From Granulicella sp. (GTDB taxonomy: Bacteria > Acidobacteriota > Terriglobia > Terriglobales > Acidobacteriaceae): a stretch of DNA of 64,000 nt. Location: contig DAHWNL010000078.1 in assembly GCA_027339965.1 (NCBI GenBank), positions 96,001 to 160,000 of the forward strand, written 5' to 3'. The notes under the pieces were generated by a model. That model had not been told where the DNA came from and ran no database searches. It saw only the letters and a program-made list of their open reading frames with translations. Shown here one piece after another: positions 21,941 through 36,911 of this stretch (position 1 is the stretch's first letter; each line of letters starts with the position of its first letter). The translations under genes were made by a program, and so were the position numbers.

Positions 21941-22876
21941 TCAGGCCGGCAAAGTCCGGGCACCATCCGCTCGCCGGTCCACCATCCGCAGATACTCCTG
22001 AGTCAAGAGCAGGCGAAGCGTCCGGTCCGTTTCTGGAGCGCAGGGGGTCTCAAGAGAGCGGCAGCGATCAATGGCCCGGCGCAGATCCCCGAGAAATGCA
22101 ACGCACGGCCGGCAACCCTCGATATGCTTCCGAATCTTTTCGCACCTTGGCTCCACGACCCGCCCATCCATGTACTCGGAAAGATTGGCGAAGATCTCCC
22201 GGCAGGTCTTTGGCTGGGGGCGCACCCCGGCCTGCCTGCCCCTGCGCTCGCGCACTGCCGCAGGAGCCACTCGGTTCTCTGGCTCGACTCCTTCGCCAGT
22301 CGTTGTGTCCGCGGCGGCGAGAAGCTTTCTCAGTTGCAGCCTCGCCCGGTGCAGCCTTACCCTTACCGTTCCCTGCTCTATTCCCAGCACTTGAGCGATC
22401 TGTTCGGTCTCCAAATCCTCCATATCATGGAGCACCAACACCATCCGGTAAGGTGGAGGCAGCATCAGGATCGCCTCCTGAAGGCGTTGGTTCTGTTCAG
22501 CTCTGGAAACCAGTGTCTCCGGATTGGGATTCGGATCCTTCAGTAACTGGCTCAGTTCGGATTCGGCGGGAGTCAGTTCACTCAACGAAAGCATCTGGAC
22601 TGGGGCTTCACTCACCTTGCGCCGCATCCTCCAACAGCGATTGCGCGCTACCTTATACAGCCACACCGCAAGCGCCTTCGGCTCAGTGATCTTGGCCAAA
22701 TGGGGTAGCGACCGCACAAAAACCTCCTGCGCGGTGTCCTCAGCGTCCTCCGTGTGGCCGCATATCTTCATGCTGAAGGCATACACAGTGTTCTGCAGCA
22801 GTTCCAAGGCTTCGTTGACCGCGGCGGCATCCTTTTGCTGCAGCAGGCCGGTTGCTCGAATCAGTTCCGGACGCAT
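21941..22876 (-). CDS. ECF sigma factor with fused C-terminal zinc-finger (ZAS/zf-HC2-like) extension
   Basis: Region 2 DAEDTAQEVF...WLYKVARN; region 4 GTVRVRLHRAR; C-terminal CREIFANLSEYMD...HIEGCRPC; TAGGAG RBS. Confidence 0.88.
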   Translation of the reverse strand: MRPELIRATGLLQQKDAAAVNEALELLQNTVYAFSMKICGHTEDAEDTAQEVFVRSLPHLAKITEPKALAVWLYKVARNRCWRMRRKVSEAPVQMLSLSELTPAESELSQLLKDPNPNPETLVSRAEQNQRLQEAILMLPPPYRMVLVLHDMEDLETEQIAQVLGIEQGTVRVRLHRARLQLRKLLAAADTTTGEGVEPENRVAPAAVRERRGRQAGVRPQPKTCREIFANLSEYMDGRVVEPRCEKIRKHIEGCRPCVAFLGDLRRAIDRCRSLETPCAPETDRTLRLLLTQEYLRMVDRRADGARTLPA

Positions 22877-24174
22877 TGATCTCCTATAGCCCCATCGTTC
22901 TATCCCAGCGCGCCCCAGTTCTCGGTGCGCTCCTTCCTCCATTCTAAAGCTCTGGCTTTCCTGCAATCGGGTCAGTCCCTTGATCTGGTATGAAAAAGAT
23001 CCGCTCAGGCGTCAGACGCTACGACCACCTGCTCGAAGGACTTCAACTGGTCAAAAATTCTTCCGATGCCGCCAAGGGCGAAGTTCTCGACGCGCGCTGC
23101 GCCGCTTTGTTCTTGCCCGGGATCACCTTGGTCCCGGTCTGATCAATGTCTATGCTGAAATGCTCATCGTGGTTCAACTCCAGCGGTGCGGAGCAGAGGA
23201 TACATCGCGGCCATCCGCTCACTTCCTGGAGCCCCCTCACGACCGCCCTCGATCCATTTGCCCACAAGTTGTCCAGAGTCAGGGATGGCTCTCGAACCAC
23301 AGCCAGCACTGCCCTGAACACGGCCTTCACGTTCAGGATGCACAAGAAGGGCGTCTTGCCCGGAAGCCGTTGTTGGCTCCCGCTGAAATCACGGTCCGCT
23401 TGGAACGAAAGGCATAGGCCACAACCACCGACGCGTTGGACTGGGCGCAAAGCCGGGGCTCCCACCCGCCCGTGCCTCCCTTCTACCCCGGGTAGCTATG
23501 GGCAACTCATTCGCTCTGCTTGCCCGCCGTCGTCATTCTGGCTTAGCCCATGACCATTCCCACTGCCCTTTGTCGCATTTCATCCAACGCGGCCCCGAGG
23601 CAAAGGCCTGCCGTGGCCCTTGCTCAGGCCATATTTAAGCCCGGGATCACGCACTCCTTCCATCCAGGATCAATAGGATCGCCCTACAAGGTAACGGCGC
23701 AGCTTTCTGCTTCACTGGACGCCCTGCCAGGATCGGTCATTCCTCTGAACGATAACCAATGTTTAAGAAGGAAGATTCATATCTCCCGGCGAGTATTTCA
23801 TCAAGCTCTCCACTCCCGTTGACCAACCTGTTCCGCCCTATGCAGTCACGATGCGCAGCCGGCTTCGAGGAGCAGCAACGAGAAATCCGCATTTGGACAA
23901 TGCACCAGCGATCCATCTTCCGTCACATGCATTCTGGTCCCCAACTCATTGTGTACAGACGCCGTAAGCATTCGGTGACGATAATCACATACAACCTTCC
24001 TTCGATCTTGATCTGATACATAGCAACGACACTGAGACGATCCGGTGCGCTTCAGTTGCATTCGATATTTCAAAGAGCTTGCAGGTGGAGGAGCGTTTTC
24101 GGACCGTTGGCTGAGATGCAGGTGCCGTGCCATACCTGGAACCAAACAACATTAAATTGATCGAAGGAGAAACG

Positions 24175-24756
24175 ATGAAGCGCATTCTTTCAGTAACTTT
24201 CGTGTTGCTGAGCACAGCAGTTGCCGCGCAGGCGGGAACGATCCACGGTAAGGTGACCGGCGCCAAAGGGCAGTCCGTCGTCTACATTGACGCTATTGCA
24301 GGCAAGACCTTCCCTGCCCCATCGCAGCACGCGGTGATGGATCAAAAGGGTTTGATGTTCGCGCCCCATATTCTGGCGATCCTGAAGGGAACCACTGTGG
24401 ACTTCAAGAACGAAGACAGCGTGGAGCACAACGTGTTCTGGCCTTCCATCAGTGGCAACAAGAGTCTTGGCCACAATATGGGAACCTGGCCGACCGGTCA
24501 ACAACGCAGTTTCAAGTTCGATACTGCTGGAATCGTTCCCCTCCTCTGCAACGTGCATCCCGATATGTATGGTTTTATCGTGGTTTCGCCGACGCCCTAC
24601 TATGCAATAACCGACAAAACAGGCGCCTTCACGATCTCCAATGTTCCCAACGGCACCTATAGCGTGACTGGATGGAACGAGCGAGACAAGATGCGCACCC
24701 ACACCGTTCAGGTTACGGTAAACGGCGATGTAACAGCGACCATTCCCCTGAAGTGA
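24175..24756 (+). CDS. Exported cupredoxin-domain protein (type-1 copper ligands) with carboxypeptidase-regulatory-like flanks
   Basis: Signal peptide; HNVF ... CNVHPDM (His, Cys, His, Met); AAGGAG RBS. Confidence 0.8.
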   Translation: MKRILSVTFVLLSTAVAAQAGTIHGKVTGAKGQSVVYIDAIAGKTFPAPSQHAVMDQKGLMFAPHILAILKGTTVDFKNEDSVEHNVFWPSISGNKSLGHNMGTWPTGQQRSFKFDTAGIVPLLCNVHPDMYGFIVVSPTPYYAITDKTGAFTISNVPNGTYSVTGWNERDKMRTHTVQVTVNGDVTATIPLK

Positions 24757-24826
24757 CAGGCGATCCTAGGGCGGGAAATCTCGCAATCCGGTTGCACCAT
24801 AGCGCCCCAGCAGAGAGACAGCCATC

Positions 24827-26800
24827 ATGCTGAAGAGATTTGAAAACAAAGCGGTCGACGCGGGATGGCTGAACAGCAATTTCCCCTGCATGATGGCATG
24901 CCCGGCTCATACCAATGCGGGACGGTATGTTGCGCTTATTGCGGAAGGCAAGTACGAAGATGCCTATCGCTATGCGCGTGGTCCAAATCCTTTGGCCAGC
25001 GTCTGTGGCCGGGTTTGCGCTCACCCCTGCGAAACTGCCTGCCGCCGCGGTGAGATTGATCGCCCTATCTCGATCCGGGCTCTCAAACGCTTTTTGACCG
25101 AGCGTCACGGACCTGAGTCCCGGCGGCCCGTTGATATAAATGCTGGTCGCAGACAGGAAAAGCTGCCCTTCAAAATTGCGATTGTGGGAGCCGGACCGGT
25201 TGGCCTTTCAGCCGCTCATGACCTCGCGGTGATGGGCTACTCGGTCACAATCTTTGAGGCCGCGCCGGTAGCAGGCGGCATGCTCCATCTCGGTCTACCG
25301 GAGTACCGGCTTCCTCGCAGTGTGATCCAGGCGCAAGTACGCGAAATCCTTGCAACCGGAGATATCACGCTAAAACTCAACCATGCCGCGGGCCGAGATT
25401 TCACCGTCTCCGGCCTGCGCAGTCAGGGCTTCGATGCGGTTCTGATTGCCGTCGGAGCCCATCGCAGCCGCGACCTTTCCATTCCAGGAGTTGATCTCGA
25501 CGGCGTCCATAAGGGCATCGACTTCCTCCTGAACGTCAATCTTGGCTATCAATTCACCATCGGCAAGAAAGTGGTCGTGATTGGAGGCGGCAATGTCGCC
25601 ATGGATGTGGCCCGTTCGGCAGCCCGAGAGGTGCTTCGCCAGCATTCCGCTGGAGTGCAGGAACAGGAACCTCTCCAGGAGAATGTCAACGCTGTCGCTG
25701 CCAAGGAGATGATGGACATCTCCCTTTCAGCCCTTCGCCTCGGCGCCAGTGAAGTTCATCTGGTATGCCTTGAAAGCCGAGCAGAAATGCCCGCATCCGA
25801 CGAAGAGATCGCTGAAGCCGAGGAAGAAGGAATCATCCTGCACCCCGGACTCGGCCCAAAGCGTATGATCGGCGGCCCTGACGGCGTTACCGCCCTCGAA
25901 GTGCTTAAAACCAAGCAAGTCTTCGATGCGGACGGCCGCTTTAATCCCACATTCTATGAAAACAGCGAGTTTCAACTCGATTGCGACACAATCATCATGG
26001 CCATCGGCCAGGCTCCACGGCTTGACTTCCTCCAGCCGCAGGATGGGGTTGAAATCTCACGCCGGGGTCTGATCGCCGTAGAACCGCGCACGCTCATGAC
26101 CACATCTCCGGGAGTCTTTGCTGGTGGCGACTGCGCATTTGGACCCCGCCTGATCATCGACAGCGTCGCGGACGGCAAGCGAGCAGCGATGGGAATCGAT
26201 GAGTACCTCCGAGGGACTCGTCATCCGGAGCCGACGATCGAGGTCGAGGTCCTGCAACGCCACAGCATGCCGCTCAATCTCCTGGATCTTGTACGGAACG
26301 ACCCTCCCCTGCTTCCCCTGGACCGTCGGACCGGCGTCACCGAGGTCGAAACGGTTTACGACGAAGAGACAGCCCGGGCAGAAGCGCAACGCTGCCTACA
26401 CTGCTGGGTTAACACGATCTTCGAGGGCAGCCCCCTGGATGGAAGTCAATGCATCCTCTGTGGTGGTTGCGTGGATGTGTGCCCAGAGAATTGTCTTGAG
26501 CTGGTAAGCCTGGATCGCTTCGATTTCCAGCCAGCAGTCGTTGAACAGCTTGTTGCCAACGAGAGCCTCCTCACCGTGGAGCTGGATGATGTTCGAGCGA
26601 AGGAGCTTGGCACGATCTCCGGCTCCGTAATGCTGAAAGACGAGACGCGGTGCATCCGTTGCGGCCTCTGCGCAGCACGATGCCCGGTGGGCACGATCAC
26701 CATGGAATCCTACAACCTGATCCCGGCCGAACCGACCGGGCTCATCTCCCCTGAATCCATCGAAGCGCCTCTGCGCGCGACGTTGGCAAACAGAAAGTGA
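24827..26800 (+). CDS. Fe-S flavoprotein NAD(P)H oxidoreductase (GltD/NfnB/SudA/DsrL superfamily) with C-terminal 2x[4Fe-4S] ferredoxin
   Basis: CMMACP...CGRVCAHPCETAC N-domain; GAGPVG and GGGNVAMD Rossmann motifs; CILCGGCVDVCP and CIRCGLCAARCP. Confidence 0.88.
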   Translation: MLKRFENKAVDAGWLNSNFPCMMACPAHTNAGRYVALIAEGKYEDAYRYARGPNPLASVCGRVCAHPCETACRRGEIDRPISIRALKRFLTERHGPESRRPVDINAGRRQEKLPFKIAIVGAGPVGLSAAHDLAVMGYSVTIFEAAPVAGGMLHLGLPEYRLPRSVIQAQVREILATGDITLKLNHAAGRDFTVSGLRSQGFDAVLIAVGAHRSRDLSIPGVDLDGVHKGIDFLLNVNLGYQFTIGKKVVVIGGGNVAMDVARSAAREVLRQHSAGVQEQEPLQENVNAVAAKEMMDISLSALRLGASEVHLVCLESRAEMPASDEEIAEAEEEGIILHPGLGPKRMIGGPDGVTALEVLKTKQVFDADGRFNPTFYENSEFQLDCDTIIMAIGQAPRLDFLQPQDGVEISRRGLIAVEPRTLMTTSPGVFAGGDCAFGPRLIIDSVADGKRAAMGIDEYLRGTRHPEPTIEVEVLQRHSMPLNLLDLVRNDPPLLPLDRRTGVTEVETVYDEETARAEAQRCLHCWVNTIFEGSPLDGSQCILCGGCVDVCPENCLELVSLDRFDFQPAVVEQLVANESLLTVELDDVRAKELGTISGSVMLKDETRCIRCGLCAARCPVGTITMESYNLIPAEPTGLISPESIEAPLRATLANRK

Positions 26801-26807
26801 GCCAACT

Positions 26808-27299
26808 ATGACCACTACAAAAGACACCTATATCGTTCAGGAAGGCGCGGTGCTCGATCGCAGGGAGTTTTTCACCAAGCTCGGTCTCGGCTCTCTGGGC
26901 GTTGCAGCCGTTGGTACATTGGCGTTTTACTACCAGTACCTTTCACCCAACGTACTCTTTGAACCATCCCCCATTGTGAACGCCGGAGCTATTGATCGGT
27001 ATCCTCTGGGCTCCGTCACGCTCGATGTCAACTCAGCAATCTACCTCGTTCATATAGCCAGAGGCTACTTCTCTCTCAGCGCTATTTGCACTCACCTGGG
27101 CTGTATGACCGCGTGGAAGCCCGAGCTCAACATGATCGCATGTCCATGCCATGGAAGCCGCTTCAACCGCGAAGGGCAAAAGCTGGCAGGTCCGGCGCCT
27201 AAACCTCTTCCATGGCTAAAAACCTGGTTGAGTGACGATGGAGAACTCATGGTCGATCGCTCCATTACGATTCCACAGTTCCAATTCTTGAGGGTATAA
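26808..27299 (+). CDS. Rieske [2Fe-2S] protein of a Rieske/cytochrome b complex
   Basis: DRREFF Tat-type anchor; CTHLGC and CPCHGS boxes. Confidence 0.93.
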   Translation: MTTTKDTYIVQEGAVLDRREFFTKLGLGSLGVAAVGTLAFYYQYLSPNVLFEPSPIVNAGAIDRYPLGSVTLDVNSAIYLVHIARGYFSLSAICTHLGCMTAWKPELNMIACPCHGSRFNREGQKLAGPAPKPLPWLKTWLSDDGELMVDRSITIPQFQFLRV

Positions 27300-27302
27300 A
27301 AG

Positions 27303-28094
27303 ATGCCGGGCACCATCGAAACCTACTTCGACAAACTCGAACGCACGCGGGTGTGGCGGTCGATCTTCCGCAGCGGCAAGGGCACAAGTACGCTTCACAA
27401 TGCGTTGGCCATTCAGCAAAACGTATTTCTGCACCTGTTCCCCACCAAAGTTCGTAAACGAATGCTCGGGCTGGGCGCTACCTGGTACCTCGGAACACTT
27501 ACGTTGGGCACATTCATCGTTCTAGTCGTCACCGGCATTCTCTTGATGCTCTACTACCATCCATCCGTGCCACGTGCATATTCCGATGTAAAAGATCTCC
27601 AATTTGTCGTTTCTTCAGGTCTTTTCCTGCGCAATCTGCATCGCTGGTCGGCCCATGCGATGGTTTTTCTTGCCTTTGCACACATGTTTCGCGTCTTTTA
27701 CCGCGGAGCATACCGTACCCCGAGAGAATTCAACTGGGTGATCGGGGTCGTTCTTCTTCTGGTAACTCTTCTGCTCAGCTACACCGGCTATCTGTTGCCC
27801 TGGGATCAACTCGCCTTCTGGGCAATCACTGTCGGGACGAACATCTCTTCGGCAGTGCCACTTATCGGCGACAAAATACGCTTTATGCTGCTGGGCGGAC
27901 ATCTTGTGAATGCCAATGCCTTGCTTCGCTTTTACGTTCTGCACTGCGTGATTCTACCGCTCACCGCAGTTCTCTTTTTAGCCGTTCATTTCTGGCGAAT
28001 CCGTAAGGACGGTGGTCTATACGTGCGGGAGACCGAGCCCGGAGTCGCAAATTCGGACCAGGACCTTTCAAATCAGGAGCAGGAATCGCGATGA
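27303..28094 (+). CDS. Cytochrome b6-like (split cytochrome b, N-terminal part)
   Basis: LHRWSAH...[26 protein letters not shown]...VHFWRIRK (four heme-b His). Confidence 0.93.
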
Positions 28095-28795
28095 CGCCTC
28101 CAAAAGACTACTCGGCCGAAGTCAGCTCGAACATGCAGGTTTCCCAACGGCGCGTTCTTTTCGTAACGCGGCGCACCTCTCCTCAGGTTAAAGCGTACGA
28201 CGAGGAGCGAGTGCAGACCTCTCCCGAGGTTCTGATTCGAGCTCTGCTCGCAGTCGAGTGCCTCCTGATTGCCCTGGTACTGATGTCATTGTTCTTCAAC
28301 GCACCGTTGGAAGGAGTTGCCAATCCGACCAACACGCCTAACCCAGCCAAAGCTCCGTGGTACTTTCTTGGGCTGCAGGAGATTTTGCACTACTTCCCAC
28401 CTGTTGTTGCCGGGGTTCTCATTCCTGGATTGCTCGTTACCGCACTCATCATTATTCCCTATTTTGACATCAACATCGAGGCAGATGGCCTCTTTCTCAA
28501 GAATCGCGAGCGGCGTCTGATGCTCTCGATGGCCGTTGCGGGTGCGCTGTCCGTCTTCTTCCTGTTTTTCAAGGTATATGTGGCGCTGGCGCCAACGTTG
28601 CTCGTGACCGCATTCGTGTTGCTTGCGGCGTTCAGCCCTCCAGAGTCGTCAGGACGCTTTCGACGGTATCTCGCACGAAGACCCGTCTTCTGGTGGATTA
28701 TGACCTGGTTTCTATGTGAACTCATCGTTCTCACGGCAGTAGGCACCTTCTTCCGCGGCCCCGGTTGGTCGTGGGTCTGGCCATGGAGGAGTTAG
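28091..28795 (+). CDS. Subunit IV-like (cytochrome b C-terminal part)
   Basis: [21 protein letters not shown], the PEWY-equivalent region; ATGA overlap with cyt b6. Confidence 0.88.
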
Positions 28796-30853
28796 ATGCA
28801 AACGACAAATAAGGGCTCATTCTCCTCGATCAGGGCATTCTTGTGCGACCCTTTCCTCATGTTTGGCGTCGTCAGCGTGTTCTTGCTCTTGCTGTTGATG
28901 GTGGCCCCGGCAAAGGATTACTTCAGCCAGTGGCGTAGCTATCAAAGGCAATACCTTAACCTCATCCGCAATCGCGGCGATGCGGTAACGTTGCTTCGGC
29001 ATTTTCAAGGCGGAATCCAGCAGATTTGGATTCCTCAGTTGGGCGTGATCGATCGTTGCCAGACCTGTCACGTTGGCGTGGCGGAGGCAAGCCTCTCCGA
29101 TGTGAAAGAGCAGCCGTTCCGGGCACATCCACCGATTCCGCACAAGCTGACCGAGTTCGGGTGTGTGATATGTCATCGTGGACAGGGTGCGGCGACGACC
29201 CTATCGGAGGCGCACCACAGCAAAATGGCCGGCGAAGAGCCCATCCTTCCCATGCGCTACATTGAGGCATCCTGCGGCCAGTGTCACCACGAACCCCTCG
29301 AGGGCACGCCCAAACTCAACCAAGGCCGTCTGCTGCTGGCTCGCTATGGATGCGTCAACTGCCACGCCATCAATCTTCCCGATGGCAGCACCATACAAGC
29401 CACGGACAATGCTCCGCCGTTGACTCACATCGCCGACAAAACCACCCGGGAGTGGATTTACGCCTGGCTCAAAGATCCAACGAGTTATTCCGCGTCATCC
29501 ACCATGCCCAACTTTCTGTTTAGCGACGCCGACGCGAGTGACATCTCCGCATTTTTGATTGCAAACAGTACACCACAATCGGGCGATTCGATGGCGTATG
29601 CAGCAACTTCGAGTGGATCTGGTTCCGATTCATCTGCGGGCGCCGTCCTCTATGGCGAGTCGTTCTGCGCATCCTGCCACGCGACCCAGAATGAGGCCGG
29701 CAATCTGGTCGGTGGAGATCTTGGACCTGAACTGACCAACGTCGGAACGAAAGTCAAGCCAGGTTGGCTCATGGCATGGCTGAAGGATCCACACACGTAC
29801 GACCCGAAGACCAAGATGCCGCAGTATCGCTGGACCGACCAACAACTCCAAACCCTGACTGCGTACGTTGCCAGCAAGACAGATCCGGATTTTGTCGCCA
29901 ATGTTCATCTGCAACCTGCGACCCAGGAGCAGATTGCACATGGTAAAAAGCTGGTCATCGAGTATGGCTGCGCTTCATGCCATGAGATTAGAGGGATACC
30001 GAAGCCAGACAACTTCGCGCCCGATCTCAGCCGAGTCGGGAGTAAGCCTCTGGTTCAGCTCATCTTTTTACCGGGGATGGAGCAGAGCCTGCCGGCCTAC
30101 CTCGCAGAGAAAATCCGACAGCCCCGAGCCTTTGGGCCTTCGCTTCATATGCCGAAGTACAGCTTTAGCAGCAGTCAGATCGACGACTTGACCACTGCGC
30201 TGCTCTCCTTCACGAACCGCAGCTTCACACTCCCTCCAAACTTGCAGATCCCTGCCGTCCGGGACACAAACTATCAGCCGGCAGGCCATGCGGGTCAGTT
30301 AATGGCGAACATCAACTGCCTGAGCTGCCATCGCATTAACGGCAACGGAGGCACAATGGCCCCCAACCTTAGCTGGGAGGGCTCATCCGTTCAACAACCG
30401 TGGCTTGACGCCTTCCTCAAGAACCCCAACACTTTACGCCCGACCCTTATTCGGCGCATGCCCAAATTCAACCTCACGGATTCGGAGCGTACTGTGCTGA
30501 CCAACTACATCCTAGCCGTCTACCAGACACCTGCATTCGAACGTGACGAGATGCCACTGACTGGGTACTCGCCGGATCTCGTCGAGAAGGGCCGACAACT
30601 GTTTTATTCCAAGTACGCCTGTCAGTCCTGCCACATCGTAAATCCCAACCAGGACAAAGGCTACATCGGCCCCACACTGACAACCGTTGGCGCTCGTCTC
30701 AACGCCGCTTGGATCTACCACTATCTGAAAGATCCTCAGGCGATACGGCCTGACACCATTGAGCCCAATCAACACATGAGTGACGACGATGCTCGTGCAT
30801 TAACCGCATTCCTGATGGCGCAGAAGACGATCGCAGGGCAGGGGGCAAAGTGA
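28796..30853 (+). CDS. Membrane-anchored octaheme cytochrome c
   Basis: N-terminal TM helix; 8 CxxCH (CQTCH, CVICH, CGQCH, CVNCH, CASCH, CASCH, CLSCH, CQSCH); repeated class-I-like W-L-x-D/N-P...MP domains. Confidence 0.9.
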   Translation: MQTTNKGSFSSIRAFLCDPFLMFGVVSVFLLLLLMVAPAKDYFSQWRSYQRQYLNLIRNRGDAVTLLRHFQGGIQQIWIPQLGVIDRCQTCHVGVAEASLSDVKEQPFRAHPPIPHKLTEFGCVICHRGQGAATTLSEAHHSKMAGEEPILPMRYIEASCGQCHHEPLEGTPKLNQGRLLLARYGCVNCHAINLPDGSTIQATDNAPPLTHIADKTTREWIYAWLKDPTSYSASSTMPNFLFSDADASDISAFLIANSTPQSGDSMAYAATSSGSGSDSSAGAVLYGESFCASCHATQNEAGNLVGGDLGPELTNVGTKVKPGWLMAWLKDPHTYDPKTKMPQYRWTDQQLQTLTAYVASKTDPDFVANVHLQPATQEQIAHGKKLVIEYGCASCHEIRGIPKPDNFAPDLSRVGSKPLVQLIFLPGMEQSLPAYLAEKIRQPRAFGPSLHMPKYSFSSSQIDDLTTALLSFTNRSFTLPPNLQIPAVRDTNYQPAGHAGQLMANINCLSCHRINGNGGTMAPNLSWEGSSVQQPWLDAFLKNPNTLRPTLIRRMPKFNLTDSERTVLTNYILAVYQTPAFERDEMPLTGYSPDLVEKGRQLFYSKYACQSCHIVNPNQDKGYIGPTLTTVGARLNAAWIYHYLKDPQAIRPDTIEPNQHMSDDDARALTAFLMAQKTIAGQGAK

Positions 30854-31584
30854 TGAAAAGGACTCTATTGGCCGTTGTAGTGCTTCTGTCCACTATGGTC
30901 TCAGGTTGTAATCACAAGAGGGCTTTGCCGCCCGCACTGGCCGCCAAAGCGAATGGTACCGCCATCGTGGTGGTTAGTGGAGATAAGCAACTCGGGTCAA
31001 TCGGATCCCAGCTTCCCCAACCTCTCATCTTGCAGATCAATGACGACCAGGGAAATGCGGTGACTGGAGCCAACGTGCAACTGTACGGACCTCCCGGCGT
31101 CACCTTTACCCCGCAGCAAATTCTCACTGACGACAATGGGCAAGCGACCTTCAAGGTAACCATGGGTGGAATCAATGGCCGGTACGAACTTACCGCATCT
31201 TCTCAGGATGCGCACGGCAGGACATTCAGTCTCACGATTCCAGAGTTTGCGGCAGGTTACCAACAGGAGGTAGGTTACGAAGTCAATCAACAATACTGTT
31301 CGCGGTGCCACAACCCCGACTCAACTTCGGAGCAGGTTTCTAACTATGACAATCTCGCTGTCAAGCCGCACCGCTTTTCCGACGGATTGATCTACAACAA
31401 CATTTCAGAGACTGATTTGACGACCATCATCTCGCACGGAGGCGCTGCAATGAATCGTTCAGCACTGATGCCGCCCTACGGGTGGACGCTCAACAAGGCG
31501 GAGGTTCAGGGAGTGATTGCTTACATTCGGCTGGTTTCTGATCCGCCCTATGTTGCTCCAGGTGTCGTGTATCAGAAGCATTGA
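30850..31584 (+). CDS. Lipoprotein with Ig-like domain and monoheme cytochrome c
   Basis: Lipobox VSGC; Big-like segment (DDQGNAVTGANV...TDDNGQA); CSRCH plus distal LMPPY. Confidence 0.8.
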   Translation: MMKRTLLAVVVLLSTMVSGCNHKRALPPALAAKANGTAIVVVSGDKQLGSIGSQLPQPLILQINDDQGNAVTGANVQLYGPPGVTFTPQQILTDDNGQATFKVTMGGINGRYELTASSQDAHGRTFSLTIPEFAAGYQQEVGYEVNQQYCSRCHNPDSTSEQVSNYDNLAVKPHRFSDGLIYNNISETDLTTIISHGGAAMNRSALMPPYGWTLNKAEVQGVIAYIRLVSDPPYVAPGVVYQKH

Positions 31585-31763
31585 AATCACGCAAATGGTG
31601 GATTCGTAACGCAGGCAGAAGTGCCGACAATCTCTTTCCTCAGTACCAGGTTGAATCCCTGCCGGCACTCCGTGCACCTTGAGACGCTTCATCCCACCAA
31701 ATGGTGGAACCGGGAATATTGGCACGATCGTGCGCAATTGATTGATTCAAACTAGGAGGATAT

Positions 31764-33122
31764 ATGAACATCTCACCTTCGGGGACCAGGACTCTGCTAT
31801 CAGTGGCAGCACTTTCAGTCCTGATCTCCGCATTTCCCAGGGATGCAATGGCCGTTCCCAGTTATGCGCGCCAAACTGGTCTTCCCTGCAACGGCTGCCA
31901 CTATGATCCGCCGGAACTGAACCCCGCTGGACGGCTTTTCAAGCTACTGGCCTACGTGCAGCGATCGAGCCTTCTCGGCAGCATAACGGCAAACAGCGGC
32001 GGGAAAAGCGCTGGGCTGGATCTTCTCCAGGCACTGCCTCTTGCTGTCATGTTGGAGACCTCCTACACTTCGCTGAACAGCCCGGAGCCAAACACGCAAA
32101 ATGGCAACTTTGAGTTTCCTCAGGACATTTCCCTGTTTCTTTCTGGGGCCTGGACGAGCAATATCGGCAGCTTTCTGCAGGTTACGTATGACACTCAAGA
32201 GGATCACTTCGGTATAGACAATACCGACATTCGTTTCGCAAACCAGACGAAACTGGATGGCAAGGATCTGGTCTACGGTCTCGACTTCAACAACAACCCG
32301 ACAGTAGAAGATCTTTGGAATGATACGCCAGCCTGGGGTTTCCCGTGGATTCAAAGTGACTTTGCACCAACGCCAGCCGCTGTCCCAATCATCGATGGCC
32401 CTCTGGCCCAGGATGTTGCCGGATTCGGCGGCTACGCCATGTGGAATCGCCATGTGTATTTGGATGTGGCGGCCTACACATCAGAGCACGTAGGCGCTCC
32501 ACAACCGAACTCAGGCAATGGATTCTCGTACAACATTCGCAATGCGGCCCCCTACTGGCGACTTGCCTACCAGGGGCATACCACCACGCTGCAGTATGAG
32601 GTCGGCACTTATGGCATGCATCTGCATAGCAGCCCCAATGCAGTTGTCGGTCCAGAAGATGATTACACCGACTACGCTTTTGATATGCAACTTGACCAAT
32701 CGCTGTTCCGCACAGATGTACTTTCCTTTCGCGGTGATTTCATCCATGAGAACTCTGACTTGCTGGGAAGCCTAACCCAAGGATTGGCTTCTCAAGGAGA
32801 ACACCATCTCAACACGGGAACGGTTAACGCCGAATATCATCTTGGCAACAAATATACTGGCACATTCCAATGGTTTGAGACCAGTGGGACAACAGATCCT
32901 CTGCGCTATTCTCCTGCTCCTGTTACCGGCAGCGCCAATGGAAACCCGAGGAGCGCTGGATACATCCTCAACTTCTCATACTGGCCGTGGCAGAACCTGC
33001 AAATCTCGCCACAGTACACCGCATATACCCGTTTCAACGGCGGTTCGACGAACTACGATGGCTCTGGGCGCAACGCGAGCGCCAACAACACGTTCTATCT
33101 GGATGTTAAGTTCCTCTTTTGA
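31764..33122 (+). CDS. cyc2: Cyc2-like fused cytochrome c / outer-membrane beta-barrel
   Basis: Signal peptide then VPSYARQTGLPCNGCHYDPPELNPAGRLFKL, matching the Cyc2 signature PxFARQTGxxCxxCH...PxL...GRxFK; aromatic beta-strand-rich body; C-terminal Phe. Confidence 0.82.
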   Translation: MNISPSGTRTLLSVAALSVLISAFPRDAMAVPSYARQTGLPCNGCHYDPPELNPAGRLFKLLAYVQRSSLLGSITANSGGKSAGLDLLQALPLAVMLETSYTSLNSPEPNTQNGNFEFPQDISLFLSGAWTSNIGSFLQVTYDTQEDHFGIDNTDIRFANQTKLDGKDLVYGLDFNNNPTVEDLWNDTPAWGFPWIQSDFAPTPAAVPIIDGPLAQDVAGFGGYAMWNRHVYLDVAAYTSEHVGAPQPNSGNGFSYNIRNAAPYWRLAYQGHTTTLQYEVGTYGMHLHSSPNAVVGPEDDYTDYAFDMQLDQSLFRTDVLSFRGDFIHENSDLLGSLTQGLASQGEHHLNTGTVNAEYHLGNKYTGTFQWFETSGTTDPLRYSPAPVTGSANGNPRSAGYILNFSYWPWQNLQISPQYTAYTRFNGGSTNYDGSGRNASANNTFYLDVKFLF

Positions 33123-33449
33123 AGCACTGCATGCGCAGCAATCGTATGCTTTGAAAGCGCTGTAGGAACCAGCTTGGATGAAGATCCATTCGCTTGAAAT
33201 GCGGCGCTTACACCCAACCTCAATTCAAGCTCCGGGGAAGAGGAATTCTTGTTTCGGTACAAATTCGCATTGCCTCGGCCGGGGATCGAATCTTGAGAGA
33301 ACCCTTTCTGGCGGGTGAGGGCGGAGGATGCAGTTGAAAGCTGAGCGGCGGTTCTACCCGATTCTGCAGGAATCGAGTTGCCAACCCTTTACTTACAACG
33401 AGAACCGCCGTGAAAAGAGCTTGCCGCACCATCCGCAAGCAAGTGAAAC

Positions 33450-33900: not shown

Positions 33901-34024
33901 TCACCCCGCCGAAGAAAAACCGGTCGAAAAGCACAGCCGCTGCTGGATTTTGACGGGGCCGGGTGCAACCGAATAACCTCAGAGTGGCATCGGTCCATTG
34001 TATCGATGCAAACGAGGAGGATAG

Positions 34025-35383
34025 ATGAACTTTTCACCTTCGGGAGCCAATACAGTTCTATCGGTAGCAGCGATTTCGCTCCTGATCTCCGCATTCCCCA
34101 AGGGTGCAATAGCTGTCCCCAGTTATGCGCGCCAAACCGGCCTCCCGTGCATCGGGTGCCACGATGACCCGCCGGAGTTGAACCCTGAGGGGCGGCTTTT
34201 CAAGTTGCTGGCCTATGTGTAGGGAGCGAGCTTCCTCGGCTCCATAAATGCAAAGAGCAGCGGGAAGAATGCTGGTTTGGATCTTCTCCACGCACTGCCT
34301 CTTTCTGTCATGTTGCAGACCTCATACACTTCACTGAACAGTCCAGAGCCAAATACCCAAAATGGGAACTTTGAGTTTCCCCAGAACATCTCCCTGTTTC
34401 TCTCCGGTGCCTGGACGAGCAACGTCGGCAGTTACCTTCAGGTTACATACGACACCCAAGCCAATCACTTCGGTATGGACAATACCGACATTCGGTTCGC
34501 AAACCAGACAAAGGTAGATGGTAAGGATCTTGTTTACGGACTTGACTTCAACAACAATCCGACGGTAGAAGATCTCTGGAACGACACGCCGGCATGGGGC
34601 GTCCCATTGATTCAAAGTGACTTTGCGCCAACGCCGGCGGCTGTTCCCATCATCGATGGCCCTCTGGGCCAGGAAGTTGCCGGATTCGGTGGTTACACCA
34701 TGTGGAACAGCCATGTGTATCTGGACGTGACAGCCTACACCTCAGAGCACATTGGCGCCTCACAACCAAACTCCGGAAATGGTTTCTCGTACAACATCCG
34801 TAACGCTGCACCCTACTGGCGTCTTGCCTACCAAGGACAGACAGCCACGACGCAGTATGAGATCGGAACCTATGGCATGCATATGCGCAGCAGTCCTAAT
34901 TCAGTCGTCGGTCCCCAGGATGATTACACCGACTACGCTTTCGACACCCAAATTGACCAATCGGTGTTCCAGACAGACGTGCTCTCGTTCCGAGGCAATT
35001 TCATCCGGGAAAACTCCGATTTGCAGGCCAGCCTGAACCAAGGATTGGCTTCTCAAGGAGGAAACCATCTGAATACTGGCACGGCTAACGTCCAGTATCT
35101 TATTGGCAGCAAATATTCAGGTACATTTGAGTGGTTTGAAACAAACGGCACAACCGATCCTCTGCGTTATGCTCCCGCTTCTGTTACCGGCAGTGCCAAT
35201 GGAAACCCGAGGAGCGCCGGATACATTCTCAACTTCTCGTACTGGCCATGGCAAAACCTTCAAATTTCGCCCCAATACACTGCGTATACACGTTTCAACG
35301 GTGGTTCGACGAACTACGATGGTTCTGGACGTAACGCCAACGCCAATAATACGTTCTACCTGGATGTGCAGTTCCTCTTTTGA
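34025..35383 (+). pseudogene. cyc2: Second Cyc2-like gene interrupted by a single in-frame TAG at codon 66
   Basis: Collinear with 31764-33122; CIGCH heme motif; TAG at 34220-34222 where copy 1 has CAG (31959-31961); the frame continues to DVQFLF. Confidence 0.85.
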
Positions 35384-35533: not shown

Positions 35534-36911
35534 TGACCCGCCCCGCATGACTAAGCCAGAAGCGGCTGGAAAATCCGGCTTGCGTGGTTCGGTTCGGCCC
35601 GTGTTGACGGGCGGATTTGCAGATACTGTAGCTCAAGTGAGTGTCTCAAGTAACAGCGTTGAACCACTGTCGTTCTGCGCTGTGACAGCAGCCGTCGTCG
35701 TGCCATGGAAAAGTGGGAGGCGAGTAGCTGCTTCCACTTTTCCACGGCTGCAGATAGCCGCGAACTCCGCCGGTGTGCGGTCGTCCAGCGCAGAGTGCGG
35801 GCGCTGGTGGTTTGTAGTCGCGTCGCCAGAGGTGCAGCTTCCGGCGAGCGTCAGCCAGGTTCAAGGACACCTCCACGTTCAGGCACTCGTCGCGCAGCTT
35901 TCCGTTGAAGCTCTCGATGTAGTCGTTCTCTACCGGCCTGCCCGGGGGGATGAAGTTCAGATGCACACCGTTCCGATACGCCCAGTGGTCGAGCGCTTTA
36001 CTGGTAGATTCCGTTTCGTTGTCCACAGTGATCGACTCCGGCAGGCCGCGTTGCAGCAGCGCCTTATCCAACGCCGTTGCGACCTCCTCCCCGCTCAGTG
36101 TGTTGTCTGTCAGCAGCGTCACACACTCCCGCGTGTACTGGTCCACTACCGTCCGCACACGGATCCAACGCCCGTCCGGCAACCACTGCGCCACGAAGTC
36201 CATCGACCGCTTCTGGTCTGGCCGCAACGCCGATCCCTGCGCCACACGATGCCGCTGCGCGCGCTCCTTGCGCTTCTTCGTCCTCACGATCGGGCCCTCC
36301 TCGACGTACAGTCGGTAGATGCGCTTGGCGTTGACCTTCCAGCCTTCGCGCTTCAACAGCACGGTCAGCCGCCGGTAGCCGTAACGCACGCGGTTGCCGG
36401 CCAGCTCCCTCAGACGGATACGCAAGGCCTCCTGCCGGTCGCGGTGATGCTCGTAGCGCAGCGTCATCCGCTCGACTGAAATCAGCTGCGACACGCGCCT
36501 CTGGCTCATCCGGTGGACCTGCTGTGCCCACTCGGCCGGCTCGCGCCGCGCACGAGGCCTTACAGTTTTTTGCGACGATCTCCTGCGACACATGACGGTC
36601 CGGGTTCGGGTCCGCTACCAAACGCTTCGACTTCGCGTTCTCTTCACGCAACTGGAGCAGCTCCTGAAGCTCGTTCAGCCCCAACCCGGAAGACTTCTTC
36701 TTCCGCAAATAAAACGTCTGCTGGCTGATGCCGTGCTTCCGGCAAGCCTCGACCACCGTGTCGCCAGACGTGGTCTCCCGCAGCACCCGCAGAATCTCTT
36801 CCTCGCTGTGTCCACCCTTACCCGTACAGGTTCTCCTCTCTTGCTTCTCAGAGAACCACAACAGGCCAAATCCTCAACGTCAACTTGGCCTAGTTTTTGG
36901 GTTTTGGGTCA
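35534..36911 (-). mobile_element. Degenerate IS3-family element (orfA/orfB)
   Basis: TG...CA ends with imperfect IRs (TGACCCgccccgcatgACTAaGCCA vs TGACCCaaaacccaaaaACTAgGCCA); orfA HSEEEILRVLRE...CRKHGISQQTFY; orfB RYGYRRL, SMDFV, DQYTREC, IESFNGKLRDECLN; A6 tract at the orfA/orfB junction; decayed DN(G)xEF motif. Confidence 0.88.

What the first reader, a model, noticed from the sequence alone, without database searches (positions are those of the whole stretch)
24175..33122. Self-contained Cyc2-to-NAD(P)H electron conduit operon (candidate Fe(II) oxidation or extracellular electron uptake)
Seen: cupredoxin, Fe-S flavoprotein, Rieske, cyt b6, subunit IV, octaheme cyt c, lipoprotein cyt c and Cyc2 in one direction with gaps of 180 bp or less. 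Knowledge: in Acidithiobacillus, Cyc2 passes electrons through the blue-copper protein rusticyanin and c-type cytochromes to an uphill bc1 complex, and these parts are encoded in separate operons. Inference: this operon packages an analogous reverse-electron-transport wire ending directly in a pyridine-nucleotide flavoprotein. It could instead run outward as an Fe(III)-reduction route, a known acidobacterial phenotype whose genes are poorly defined.
Basis: partly seen in the sequence, partly recalled or inferred. Interest (0 to 1): 0.85.

Follow-up and report, generated by a model that had tools for sequence, protein, structure and literature searches.

The report
Cyc2 haem-porin wired to Rieske/b complex
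A soil-type acidobacterium carries a conserved eight-gene operon that joins an outer-membrane iron-reactive haem pore and a blue copper protein to an unusual quinol-oxidising membrane complex with its own NAD(P) flavoprotein, most likely a route for passing electrons between the cell and dissolved iron.

Summary
Eight co-directional genes (24175-33122) encode an amicyanin-like cupredoxin, an NfnB/GltD-like Fe-S flavoprotein, a Rieske protein, cytochrome b6, subunit IV, an octahaem cytochrome c, a monohaem lipoprotein and a Cyc2-family haem-porin. The barrel protein is a true Cyc2 relative: one CXXCH, the family motif with F replaced by Y, a 16-strand AF2 barrel, and 31-34% identity to the rus-operon Cyc2 and to Cyc2B of Acidithiobacillus, with which it shares a 99%-supported clade. 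Linkage is real. The same eight genes recur in three gene orders, with both deep Cyc2 branches, in Acidobacteriota and Eisenbacteria. A second Cyc2-like gene in this genome sits beside a second Rieske/cytochrome b locus. The inner-membrane part matches the anammox Kuste4569-73 type of complex. The only junction between the two chains is the quinol site, no RuBisCO was found, and Cyc2B is linked to Fe(III) reduction. I favour outward flow from quinol to soluble Fe(III), with an NAD(P) side branch (confidence 0.45). Direction remains untested. I found no paper describing the operon. This scan has noted it before in at least eleven other genomes.

The parts
24175..24756 (+). Periplasmic type-1 copper protein (amicyanin-like C-x2-H-x2-M site) with a C-terminal CarboxypepD_reg beta-sandwich
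   Evidence: Pfam Copper-bind 25.2 bits, fn3_3 and CarboxypepD_reg; weak amicyanin/plastocyanin NCBIfam hits far below cut-off. H85, C125, H128 and M131 are invariant in 60 of 60 aligned homologues. It follows cyc2 directly in most relatives.
24827..26800 (+). Cytoplasmic NAD(P)-binding Fe-S flavoprotein (NfnB/GltD-like N-terminal Fe-S domain, FAD and NAD(P) Rossmann folds, C-terminal 2x[4Fe-4S] ferredoxin domain)
   Evidence: Pfam Pyr_redox_2 116 bits, Fer4_20 74 bits, Fer4 motifs. NF009410 scores 453 bits, below its cut-off of 516. Best solved relatives are NfnA 9n5u and NfnABC 9bov/9bp5. Both dinucleotide glycine motifs and the cysteine clusters are invariant in 17 of 17. No signal peptide by reading.
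26808..27299 (+). Rieske [2Fe-2S] protein with twin-arginine leader/anchor
   Evidence: Pfam Rieske. The best solved relative is 9rk4 at E 4.4e-24 and 88 bits, against 65 bits for the next. 9rk4 is Kuste4569 according to Table 1 of PMC12954380. Box II reads CPCHGSRF; 29 of 30 homologues read CPCHGS[KRQ]F and one reads CPCHGG.
27303..28094 (+). Four-helix cytochrome b6-type subunit with an N-terminal extension
   Evidence: Pfam Cytochrome_B 154 bits. ExtP NF040969 scores 263 bits, below its cut-off of 290. Best solved relatives are b6 of b6f complexes. His44 in the extension is kept in 25 of 26 flavoprotein-linked b6 sequences, and the extension is absent from the genome's two other cytochromes b. 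There is no cysteine at the haem cN position.
28091..28795 (+). Subunit IV-like membrane protein (quinol-site motif APWY)
   Evidence: Pfam Cytochrom_B_C; ExtQ-like at 57 bits, below cut-off. The motif KAPWYF occurs in 23 of 23 homologues and in the window protein.
28796..30853 (+). Membrane-anchored octahaem cytochrome c (four packed N-terminal haems, then four class-I cytochrome c domains)
   Evidence: 8 CXXCH in the window protein and in 21 of 21 homologues. Pfam Cytochrom_C in 5 stretches, plus Cytochrome_C7/c3-like. N-terminal hydrophobic helix by reading.
30850..31584 (+). Lipoprotein with Ig-like (Big_1) domain and one class-I cytochrome c domain
   Evidence: Pfam Big_1 and Cytochrome_CBB3. 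Lipobox VSGC by reading. One CXXCH in 15 of 15 homologues, and a lipobox cysteine in the 8 N-termini printed.
31764..33122 (+). Cyc2-family fused monohaem cytochrome-porin (copy 1, intact)
   Evidence: AVPSYARQTGLPCNGCHYDPPEL. AF2 pLDDT 90.3, pTM 0.87, 16 strands. Porin fold hits include OprP 2o4v. 34% identity to the Cyc2B cluster and 31% to a rus-operon Cyc2. Clade support 99.
34025..35383 (+). Tandem second copy of the Cyc2-like gene, interrupted by an in-frame TAG at 34220-34222
   Evidence: 84% identity over residues 1-452 with 1 TAG. Sequence read. The duplication starts 23 bases before each ATG. It is sister to copy 1 in the tree when the stop is read as X.
35646..36861 (-). IS3-type transposase ORFs next to the duplicated cyc2
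   Evidence: Pfam rve, rve_3 and HTH_21 on 35646-36593. An overlapping upstream ORF lies at 36064-36861.
21941..22966 (-). Divergent ECF sigma factor fused to a zf-HC2 anti-sigma domain; a possible regulator, not shown to act on the operon
   Evidence: Pfam Sigma70_r2, Sigma70_r4_2 and zf-HC2. It was not found upstream of the operon in the 8 relatives whose flanks were scanned.

Best explanation
The operon encodes one respiratory module that spans the envelope. A Cyc2-family haem-porin in the outer membrane, an amicyanin-like cupredoxin and a monohaem lipoprotein in the periplasm, and a membrane-anchored octahaem cytochrome connect to a Rieske/cytochrome b6/subunit IV complex. On its cytoplasmic face that complex carries an NfnB/GltD-like NAD(P) flavoprotein, as in the anammox Kuste4569-73 type.

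Most likely mechanism (inferred): menaquinol is oxidised at the periplasmic quinol site. One electron runs Rieske -> octahaem -> lipoprotein c / cupredoxin -> Cyc2 haem -> dissolved Fe(III) or another small high-potential acceptor outside the cell. The other runs through the b haems towards the flavoprotein, either reducing NAD(P)+ (anammox-type bifurcation) or being recycled, with NAD(P)H able to feed the same chain.

Shown: gene content, family membership, conserved linkage and predicted topology. Inferred: physical association of the flavoprotein, iron as the substrate, and the direction of flow.
For: Gene content and cofactor motifs.

Cyc2 membership: motif and single haem; 16-strand model at pLDDT 90.3; porin fold; full-length homology to the Cyc2B cluster that holds ACK78881 (34%, E 1e-63) and to a Cyc2 that heads a cyc1-coxBAC-cupredoxin operon (31%, E 1e-44); shared clade with SH-aLRT 99.

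Linkage:
- 20 complete sets among 80 metagenome loci, 19 with cyc2 first and 1 with cyc2 last as in the window.
- An Eisenbacteria MAG and a Solibacteraceae MAG hold all eight genes with the other deep Cyc2 branch, the latter in the order cupredoxin-cyc2-flavoprotein.
- In a sample of 300 other Acidobacteriota genomes, 23 of the 50 with the flavoprotein (E <= 1e-100) have a Cyc2-family hit within 10 kb on the same contig, and 20 of the 22 best-scoring do (my reading of the place tables).
- Within the window's own family all 7 flavoprotein-bearing genomes have one, 3 of the window's type and 4 of the other type.
- This genome's third Cyc2-like gene sits just upstream of a second Rieske plus cytochrome b/c4 fusion.

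Outward direction:
- Q-cycle logic (established knowledge).
- The published proposal needs an oxidant on the c-haem side.
- Cyc2B, Cyc1B and the petII bc1 complex rise during anaerobic Fe(III) reduction in A. ferrooxidans (passages of PMC7735108 and PMC8790237; PMC10715153 names Cyc2B ACK78881).
- No RuBisCO hit in a 98.9%-complete genome, and glycoside hydrolases in the window.
- Acidophilic Acidobacteriaceae isolates reduce Fe(III) (passages of PMC8790237).
Against: No experiment or expression datum bears on this operon, and direction rests on inference.

The closest validated activities of the family are Fe(II) oxidation: A. ferrooxidans Cyc2, Cyc2 PV-1 and Cyt572 (PMC8406198 passages). The window protein is about as close to a rus-operon Cyc2 (31%) as to Cyc2B (34%), and those two are sisters in the tree. 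Homology to Cyc2B therefore does not favour reduction over oxidation.

The evidence that Cyc2B acts in Fe(III) reduction is itself only differential abundance.

High-potential carriers such as a type-1 copper protein are equally at home in an Fe(II)-oxidising chain, as in the rus operon.

The genome has two haem-copper oxidases and a bd oxidase, so Fe(II)-derived electrons would have a sink.

Association of the flavoprotein with the membrane complex was not tested.

In 6 of 80 loci the barrel gene has no Rieske/b genes within 10 kb; in 5 of these the cupredoxin gene is adjacent, in the sixth it lies 10 kb away. 27 of 50 flavoprotein-bearing genomes show no nearby Cyc2 with my two queries. The parts can therefore work apart.
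Confidence: 0.45

Rival explanations
1. Inward flow. Cyc2 oxidises dissolved Fe(II), the cupredoxin collects the electrons, and they go downhill to a terminal oxidase. The operon's Rieske/b complex serves as the uphill branch into the quinone pool, like petI in A. ferrooxidans. The flavoprotein supplies or takes low-potential electrons at the b-haem side.
For: All biochemically validated Cyc2 proteins oxidise Fe(II) (PMC8406198 passages). The window protein shares a 99%-supported clade with a Cyc2 that heads a rus-type operon. The pairing of Cyc2 with a cupredoxin mirrors Cyc2/rusticyanin. In many relatives the same operon uses the Cyc2 branch that contains the Mariprofundus and Chlorobiaceae proteins. 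Oxidases are present.
Against: Electrons entering at the c-haem/Rieske side cannot reach the flavoprotein except through quinol, so 'ending directly in NAD(P)H' does not follow from the architecture (inference). A reversed complex would consume rather than make low-potential electrons on the b side. No RuBisCO was found and the gene neighbourhood is heterotrophic, so there is little need for uphill NAD(P)H synthesis. The trait is patchy: 10 of 300 other phylum genomes carry the window's Cyc2 type, and the one other genome of the same genus in the sample does not.
Confidence: 0.3
2. The substrate outside the cell is not iron. The haem-porin exchanges electrons with another small soluble redox species such as Mn, Cu, or small quinones from humic matter. 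Alternatively the module is mainly an alternative complex III that reduces the cupredoxin for the terminal oxidases, with Cyc2 as an overflow valve or an assimilatory ferric reductase.
For: Cyc2 homologues are common in bacteria not known for iron metabolism, and additional functions are considered possible (PMC8406198, PMC6344600 and PMC9040806 passages). In 5 of 80 loci cyc2 and the cupredoxin form a unit with no Rieske/b genes within 10 kb. The genome already has a caa3-linked bc complex, so this one is accessory.
Against: Nothing in the sequence points to another substrate. The nearest characterised relatives all handle iron. A conserved eight-gene unit with nine c haems suggests respiratory flux rather than assimilation.
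Confidence: 0.2
3. The genes are neighbours without a shared function; cyc2 landed here through the mobile elements beside it.
For: cyc2 stands at the 3' end after a 179-base gap. It is duplicated, and it is flanked by an IS3-type transposase.
Against: The same eight genes are linked in three different orders, in two phyla, and with two deeply diverged Cyc2 branches. A second Cyc2-like gene and Rieske/b pair lies in the same genome.
Confidence: 0.03

Closest known systems
Kuenenia stuttgartiensis Rieske/cytochrome b complexes Kuste4569-4574 and Kustd1480-1485 (PMC12954380, passages read)
   Same: Rieske protein (best solved relative of the window's Rieske is Kuste4569, 9rk4). Four-helix b6-type cytochrome b plus subunit IV. 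Hexa- or octahaem cytochrome c in place of cytochrome f. A cytoplasmic Fe-S flavoprotein related to NfnABC subunits, encoded in the cluster. An N-terminal histidine in b6 that could match the extra haem b ligand predicted there.
   Different: No HAO-like octahaem enzyme. No anammoxosome: the positive side is the periplasm. The Terriglobia b6 lacks the cysteine for haem cN. The module is joined to a cupredoxin, a lipoprotein cytochrome and an outer-membrane Cyc2, which those passages do not mention for anammox. The function is unproven in both systems.
rus operon of iron-oxidising Acidithiobacillus (cyc2-cyc1-orf-coxBACD-rus)
   Same: An outer-membrane Cyc2 of the same clade (31% identity) encoded together with a type-1 copper protein and c-type cytochromes. 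I saw this operon in genome G312.
   Different: There the partners are an aa3 oxidase, the dihaem Cyc1 and rusticyanin. Here they are a Rieske/b6 complex with a flavoprotein, and the copper protein is amicyanin-like with an extra beta-sandwich. The host here is a heterotroph-type acidobacterium.
Cyc2B-Cyc1B with the petII bc1 operon of A. ferrooxidans (PMC7735108, PMC8790237, PMC10715153, passages read)
   Same: A Cyc2 paralogue (34% identical to the window protein) sits next to a Rieske/cytochrome b operon; in the Acidithiobacillus MAG locus L212 all genes are co-directional. The proposed flow is quinol -> bc1 -> c cytochromes -> outer-membrane cytochrome -> Fe(III).
   Different: A classical bc1 with cytochrome c1, a short-chain dehydrogenase and c4 cytochromes. 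No flavoprotein, no cupredoxin in the cluster, no octahaem. The evidence there is differential expression only.
Geobacter ExtP/ExtQ/ExtS (b6-like quinol oxidoreductase genes beside an outer-membrane conduit)
   Same: The best NCBIfam hits of b6, subunit IV and part of the octahaem are to these families. The idea of a b6-type complex encoded beside an outer-membrane electron conduit is shared.
   Different: All scores lie below the curated cut-offs (263 < 290, 57 < 150, 84 < 100). The outer-membrane part there is a porin with multihaem cytochromes, not a Cyc2. What I say of the Ext cluster beyond the NCBIfam family names is recalled.

Membership tests
Cyc2 fused cytochrome-porin (criteria of Keffer et al. 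2021, PMC8406198) | Signal peptide | tested here: met
   N-terminal hydrophobic stretch ending AMA|VP by reading; helix 5-23 in the AF2 model. No dedicated signal-peptide predictor was run.
Cyc2 fused cytochrome-porin (criteria of Keffer et al. 2021, PMC8406198) | Exactly one CXXCH near the N-terminus | tested here: met
   CNGCH at residues 42-46. 73 of 75 close homologues have exactly one; 2 have none.
Cyc2 fused cytochrome-porin (criteria of Keffer et al. 2021, PMC8406198) | AXPXFAR[Q/K][T/Y] five residues upstream of CXXCH | tested here: inconclusive
   The window has AVPSYARQT with correct spacing but Y for F, so the strict PXFAR screen of the paper would drop it. Of 75 close homologues, 68 match A.P.[FY]ARQT (54 with Y, 14 with F), 5 have the Y form with G in place of the first A, and 2 lack CXXCH. 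The genome's third copy and the consensus of 86 diverse relatives have F.
Cyc2 fused cytochrome-porin (criteria of Keffer et al. 2021, PMC8406198) | PXL four residues downstream of CXXCH | tested here: met
   CNGCH-YDP-PEL. P50 is nearly invariant and L52 invariant in 86 sequences.
Cyc2 fused cytochrome-porin (criteria of Keffer et al. 2021, PMC8406198) | 16-stranded porin, at least 365 residues | tested here: met
   452 aa. The AF2 model has 16 strands at mean pLDDT 90.3. Foldseek hits are 16-strand porins, with OprP 2o4v at rank 28, the template named in the paper.
Cyc2 fused cytochrome-porin (criteria of Keffer et al. 2021, PMC8406198) | Placement among validated members / FeGenie cluster 1-3 | tested here: inconclusive
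   The protein sits in a clade (SH-aLRT 99) with a rus-operon Cyc2 and Cyc2B, apart from the Mariprofundus and Chlorobiaceae proteins. This puts it on the side of the published Cluster 2 anchor and not in Cluster 1. No Leptospirillum Cyt572 sequence and no FeGenie HMMs were available, so Cluster 2 versus Cluster 3 is open.
Cyc2 fused cytochrome-porin (criteria of Keffer et al. 2021, PMC8406198) | Iron redox activity | not testable with these tools
   Needs expression and assay.
NAD(P) oxidoreductase-bearing Rieske/cytochrome b complex (anammox type) | Rieske, four-helix b6 and separate subunit IV | tested here: met
   The best solved Rieske relative is Kuste4569.
NAD(P) oxidoreductase-bearing Rieske/cytochrome b complex (anammox type) | Hexa- or octahaem cytochrome c in place of cytochrome f/c1 | tested here: met
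   8 CXXCH in the window protein and in 21 of 21 homologues.
NAD(P) oxidoreductase-bearing Rieske/cytochrome b complex (anammox type) | Fe-S flavoprotein with an NAD(P) site encoded in the cluster | tested here: met
   It lies directly upstream of the Rieske gene in the window and in all 20 complete loci.
NAD(P) oxidoreductase-bearing Rieske/cytochrome b complex (anammox type) | Flavoprotein physically bound to the membrane complex | not testable with these tools
Indirect only: a b6 N-terminal extension with His44 in 25 of 26 flavoprotein-linked b6 sequences.
NAD(P) oxidoreductase-bearing Rieske/cytochrome b complex (anammox type) | HAO-like octahaem enzyme subunit (Kuste4574) | tested here: not met
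   No such gene in the operon. It is present in only one of the two anammox complexes, so it is not defining for the type.
Geobacter ExtP/ExtQ/ExtS equivalogs (NCBIfam) | Score above the curated cut-off | tested here: not met
   263.3 against 290, 57 against 150, 83.7 against 100.
Rusticyanin | Match to a rusticyanin model | tested here: not met
   Only weak amicyanin and plastocyanin hits in NCBIfam. The ligand spacing C-x2-H-x2-M is amicyanin-like; that comparison is recalled.

The most novel reading that the evidence does not exclude
The module is a bifurcating menaquinol:Fe(III)/NAD(P)+ oxidoreductase. Reduction of soluble, high-potential Fe(III) outside the cell through Cyc2 pulls one electron of each quinol. 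That pull pays for pushing the other electron through the b haems and the Fe-S flavoprotein onto NAD(P)+. Widespread soil Acidobacteria would then make NAD(P)H from quinol without spending proton-motive force. They would also provide the first tractable, non-anammox hosts for testing the mechanism proposed for Kuste4569-73.
Probability: 0.2. Interest if true: 0.85.

Novelty: new variant of a known kind. Interest (0 to 1): 0.68.

Why it matters
Two systems studied apart turn out to be encoded as one unit in common soil and peat bacteria: Cyc2 iron cytochrome-porins and the enigmatic NAD(P)-linked Rieske/cytochrome b complexes of anammox bacteria. If the unit exchanges electrons with iron, it gives Terriglobia a defined genetic basis for iron redox activity, an acidobacterial trait whose genes are poorly known. 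It also warns against reading Cyc2 in metagenomes as an iron-oxidation marker. Most members of the window's clade carry Y in place of F in the family motif, so they would fail the motif screen used for the published Cyc2 tree and may be under-counted. The operon also offers a route to test the unproven quinol-to-NAD(P)H bifurcation idea outside anammox bacteria.

Tried and rejected
- Expression: the look-up of sequencing runs listed no RNA holder. The three runs listed (X1-X3, coded, labelled mine drainage metagenome, found by 'same study') hold next to none of the words.
- Complex prediction for the b6 dimer with the C-terminal domain of the flavoprotein was not available, so binding is untested.
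- The search for related loci with the 86-row alignment failed for lack of a conserved stretch. I used a degenerate motif pattern instead.
- An FNR-box consensus (recalled) was searched in the window. It gave 3 one-mismatch hits, none upstream of the operon and no more than chance.
- The promoter/terminator consensus scan was uninformative: fewer hits than in shuffles.
- Copper-bind (PF00127) was sought in five genomes to find rusticyanin next to Cyc2. It gave no hit in the Acidithiobacillus MAG. The rus-type operon was found later by another route.
- In the first tree copy 2 was translated one base out of frame, so its long branch there is meaningless. This was corrected.
- Names of close homologues were looked up to find a culturable carrier. 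Only MAG names appeared: Candidatus Sulfotelmatobacter, Terriglobia, Terriglobales.
- Literature searches found no description of this operon: cyc2+acidobacteria+rieske (4 papers); cyc2+terriglobia (0); cyc2/fused cytochrome-porin/acidobacteria (93, 20 listed); cyc2/cupredoxin/cytochrome b6/nadph (9 papers hold at least 3 of the terms, none relevant by title); geothrix+cyc2 (12); sulfotelmatobacter/cyc2/fegenie/iron oxidation (308 hold at least 2, the 12 listed hold no 'sulfotelmatobacter').
- Supplements and figshare files of PMC8406198 and PMC10654088 (trees, similarity networks) were not seen and may already contain these acidobacterial sequences.
- PMC12442345 and PMC13647500 held nothing relevant to the terms I asked for.

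Full report
**What is there.** Between 24175 and 33122 eight genes lie on the + strand, separated by 70, 7, 3, -4, 0, -4 and 179 bases.

| Gene | Coordinates | Main evidence |
|---|---|---|
| Cupredoxin with C-terminal beta-sandwich | 24175-24756 | Copper-bind, CarboxypepD_reg |
| Fe-S flavoprotein, 657 aa | 24827-26800 | GltD/NfnB-like Fe-S domain, FAD and NAD(P) folds, two C-terminal 4Fe-4S motifs |
| Rieske protein with twin-arginine leader | 26808-27299 | Pfam Rieske |
| Cytochrome b6, four-helix | 27303-28094 | Cytochrome_B 154 bits |
| Subunit IV | 28091-28795 | Cytochrom_B_C |
| Octahaem cytochrome c, membrane-anchored | 28796-30853 | 8 CXXCH |
| Lipoprotein, Ig-like domain plus one haem | 30850-31584 | Big_1, one CXXCH |
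| Haem-porin, 452 aa | 31764-33122 | signal peptide, one CXXCH, barrel; no Pfam or NCBIfam hit |

The cofactor sites are conserved in relatives:
- the four copper ligands in 60 of 60 cupredoxins;
- 8 CXXCH in 21 of 21 octahaems;
- 1 CXXCH in 15 of 15 lipoproteins;
- KAPWYF in 23 of 23 subunit IV proteins;
- both dinucleotide motifs and the cysteine clusters of the flavoprotein in 17 of 17.

**Is the barrel protein a Cyc2?** Keffer et al. 2021 (PMC8406198, passages) define the family by five features: a signal peptide; one CXXCH; AXPXFAR[Q/K][T/Y] five residues upstream of it; PXL four residues downstream; and a 16-strand porin of at least 365 residues.

The window protein reads AVPSYARQTGLPCNGCHYDPPEL. 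Everything fits except Y for F. The consensus of 86 diverse relatives is AVPSFARQTG..C..CHT.FPEL. Of 75 close homologues, 68 match A.P.[FY]ARQT (54 with Y, 14 with F), 5 have the Y form with G in place of the first A, and 2 lack CXXCH. The strict PXFAR screen of that paper would have dropped most of this clade.

An AF2 model built on the 86-row alignment has pLDDT 90.3, pTM 0.87 and 16 strands. Foldseek returns 16-strand porins, including OprP 2o4v, the template named in the paper.

The family is large: 5,298 proteins at E <= 0.001 among the 7,999 candidates scored, and 2,209 clusters at 50% identity. The few named close relatives are Terriglobia or Candidatus Sulfotelmatobacter MAG proteins called hypothetical.

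**Placement.** I scanned one genome per species for the motif. Of the 120 loci, 118 gave a motif-bearing ORF, and 66 of those were complete and at least 365 aa.

A quick IQ-TREE of 82 rows was built from those 66, 13 representatives and the 3 copies of this genome. It splits into two halves, each with SH-aLRT 99:
- One half has FARKY motifs. It holds Mariprofundus and other Zetaproteobacteria, Chlorobiaceae, Nitrospira and many others.
- The other half has FARQT motifs. It holds the window protein and an Acidithiobacillus MAG protein (L028).

L028 is 89% identical to an A. ferrooxidans cluster. That cluster contains ACK78881, which PMC10715153 calls Cyc2B (passage). A search of 16 genomes of that genus found a 65%-identical paralogue in G312. 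It heads a cyc1-orf-coxB-coxA-coxC-cupredoxin string, that is, a rus-type operon.

The window protein is:
- 34% identical to the Cyc2B cluster (E 1e-63);
- 31% identical to the rus-operon Cyc2 (E 1e-44);
- alignable to the Mariprofundus protein only over the 56-residue haem region.

A second tree of 49 rows that I selected puts the window copies, the rus-operon Cyc2 and Cyc2B in one 36-row clade with support 99, apart from the Mariprofundus and Chlorobiaceae outgroup. The protein is thus inside the family, on the side of the published Cluster 2 anchor and not in Cluster 1. Cluster 3 (Leptospirillum Cyt572) could not be tested. PMC10654088 reports that Cyc572 arises from a dense cluster with acidobacterial homologues (passage).

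**Is cyc2 linked to the Rieske/cytochrome b genes?** Yes, by four lines of evidence.

*First, metagenome loci.* The 80 loci fetched with the barrel protein sort as follows:

| Class | Loci |
|---|---|
| All eight genes, cyc2 first (cyc2-cupredoxin-flavoprotein-Rieske-b6-SUIV-octahaem-lipoprotein) | 19 |
| All eight genes, cyc2 last, as in the window | 1 |
| Consistent until the contig ends | 41 |
| Too short to judge | 10 |
| No Rieske/b genes within 10 kb (cupredoxin adjacent in 5, 10 kb away in 1) | 6 |
| Second locus type | 1 |
| No neighbours of the set | 2 |

*Second, other phyla.* An Eisenbacteria MAG and a Solibacteraceae MAG carry all eight genes at 32-62% identity, but with a Cyc2 of the other (FARKY) half. 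The Solibacteraceae order is cupredoxin-cyc2-flavoprotein.

*Third, a phylum sample.* In 300 other Acidobacteriota genomes the flavoprotein (E <= 1e-100) occurs in 50. The window's Cyc2 type (E <= 1e-20) occurs in 10. The other type occurs in 53 of the 301 searched, none of them G000. Reading the three place tables together:
- 23 of the 50 flavoprotein genomes have a Cyc2-family hit within 10 kb on the same contig;
- 20 of the 22 with the best flavoprotein scores do;
- in the window's own family all 7 flavoprotein genomes do, 3 with the window's type and 4 with the other.

The Cyc2 partner has therefore been exchanged between deep branches while the rest of the operon stayed 72-80% identical.

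*Fourth, this genome.* It has three cytochrome b loci:
- a caa3-oxidase-linked housekeeping one;
- the window operon;
- a third in which another Cyc2-like gene (50% identical) lies just upstream of a Rieske gene and a cytochrome b/subunit IV/four-haem fusion. This arrangement is also seen in metagenome locus L134.

In the Acidithiobacillus MAG the Cyc2B-type gene is followed on the same strand by two dihaem c4 cytochromes, an SDR, Rieske, cytochrome b and c1.

The paper describes these anammox complexes as b6-like, with subunit IV, a hexa- or octahaem cytochrome and a putative cytoplasmic NAD(P) oxidoreductase. It sets out the proposal that quinol bifurcation there makes NAD(P)H while the other electron goes to an energetically favourable acceptor. 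Its AlphaFold3 models predict an extra haem b held by an N-terminal histidine of the two b6 subunits.

Here the flavoprotein-linked b6 proteins share an N-terminal extension with His44 in 25 of 26 sequences. The genome's two other cytochromes b lack the extension. I could not align Kuste4571 itself, so this is only consistent. The Terriglobia b6 has no cysteine at the haem cN position; the Solibacteraceae one has.

**Direction.** Nothing here measures it. My reasons for preferring outward flow are inferential.

- In any Rieske/b complex the c-haem/Rieske chain and the b-haem chain meet only at the quinol site. Iron-derived electrons entering from the periplasm end in quinol, and in reverse operation the b chain runs away from the flavoprotein. 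A wire from Fe(II) directly to NAD(P)H is not what the architecture offers. NAD(P)+ reduction needs quinol as donor and an oxidant at the periplasmic end.
- At low pH soluble Fe(III) is such an oxidant. PMC7735108 quotes +663 mV for the couple at pH 2.
- In A. ferrooxidans, Cyc2B, Cyc1B and the petII bc1 complex increase during anaerobic Fe(III) reduction.
- The genome shows no RuBisCO hit at 98.9% completeness. The window is rich in glycoside hydrolases.
- Acidophilic Acidobacteriaceae isolates are known Fe(III) reducers under low oxygen (PMC8790237 passages).

Against this:
- Every validated activity in the family is Fe(II) oxidation.
- The window protein is as close to the rus-operon Cyc2 as to Cyc2B.
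- Many relatives of the operon use the Cyc2 branch of neutrophilic iron oxidisers.
- Oxidases are present.

I therefore give outward flow 0.45, inward flow 0.30, another substrate or role 0.20 and no functional link 0.03.

**Local peculiarities.** In this genome cyc2 stands at the 3' end. It is followed, after a 0.9-kb spacer, by a second copy that is 84% identical and carries an in-frame TAG at 34220-34222. The duplication begins 23 bases before each start codon. An IS3-type transposase lies just beyond. Upstream of the cupredoxin, where most relatives have cyc2, lie 1.2 kb without a recognisable gene. This suggests a rearrangement mediated by mobile elements. Genomes G037 and G224 of the same family also appear to have cyc2 last, judged by coordinates.

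**Novelty.** The parts are known kinds. Their union in one conserved operon was not found in the papers I could search (supplements not seen). This scan has already noted the same operon on other DNA at least eleven times. Those notes agree with my reading, which I had recorded before seeing them.

- the tie to a rus-operon Cyc2 and to Cyc2B;
- the Cyc2B-pet adjacency;
- the swap of Cyc2 branches within one bacterial family;
- the second Cyc2-Rieske/b locus in this genome;
- the Y-for-F motif variant;
- the Q-cycle argument on direction.

Noticed in passing
window 33123-35383: Tandem second copy of the Cyc2-like gene with an in-frame TAG (34220-34222). It follows a 0.9-kb spacer whose reading frames include a stretch that looks to me like the C-terminus of an IS1595-type transposase (recalled likeness). 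ORF 33790-34167 had no Pfam hit; ORF 33389-33709 was not scanned.
   Followed up: partly
G000:C70:22157-27182 (L127 8143-13182), outside the window: Third Cyc2-like gene (50% identical) directly upstream of a Rieske gene and a 910-aa fusion of cytochrome b, subunit IV and four cytochrome c domains. The same arrangement occurs in metagenome locus L134.
   Followed up: partly
window 49881-54181: Co-directional multihaem cytochrome c (189 aa), 4Fe-4S dicluster protein (244 aa), NrfD-type membrane protein (396 aa) and a 583-aa protein without a Pfam hit. This looks like another quinone-linked redox module.
   Followed up: no
window 37949-39367 and 41040-43178: A 472-aa protein with a hydrazine-synthase-alpha middle-domain hit (56 bits) and a 712-aa beta-propeller protein with a C-terminal di-haem peroxidase-like region. 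Both lie a few kb downstream of the operon.
   Followed up: no
window 22967-24174: 1.2 kb without a recognisable gene between the divergent ECF sigma/anti-sigma gene and the cupredoxin. This is the place where most relatives carry cyc2.
   Followed up: partly
L211 (G001:C45:77389-81999): The Solibacteraceae MAG has a second flavoprotein-Rieske-b6-SUIV-multihaem module 15 kb from the Cyc2-linked one, with no Cyc2 in the part seen. In the phylum sample the lower-scoring flavoprotein hits mostly lack a nearby Cyc2, so there seem to be two subtypes of the module.
   Followed up: partly
L141 4082-8060 and L184 4334-7862: In two relatives, genes diverge from the operon for a 680-aa (671-aa in L184) multihaem cytochrome fused to a cytochrome b561 domain, a NapC/NirT-type multihaem cytochrome and, in L141, a monohaem cytochrome. 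Only the L141 proteins were scanned against Pfam; the L184 ORFs are matched to them by size and position.
   Followed up: no
L129 1706-2425 and 11464-13389: The one metagenome locus with the window's gene order has a Crp/FNR-family regulator gene just upstream and a P-type ATPase gene just downstream of the operon.
   Followed up: no
L210 9885-10595 versus window 27303-28094: The Solibacteraceae b6 keeps a cysteine at the haem cN position (TFCLGG). The Terriglobia b6 proteins have TWYLGT and so probably lack haem cN.
   Followed up: partly
L225 (G312:C3:1-11000): In one Acidithiobacillus-genus genome the rus-type operon lies on a 51-kb contig separate from the main contigs.
   Followed up: no
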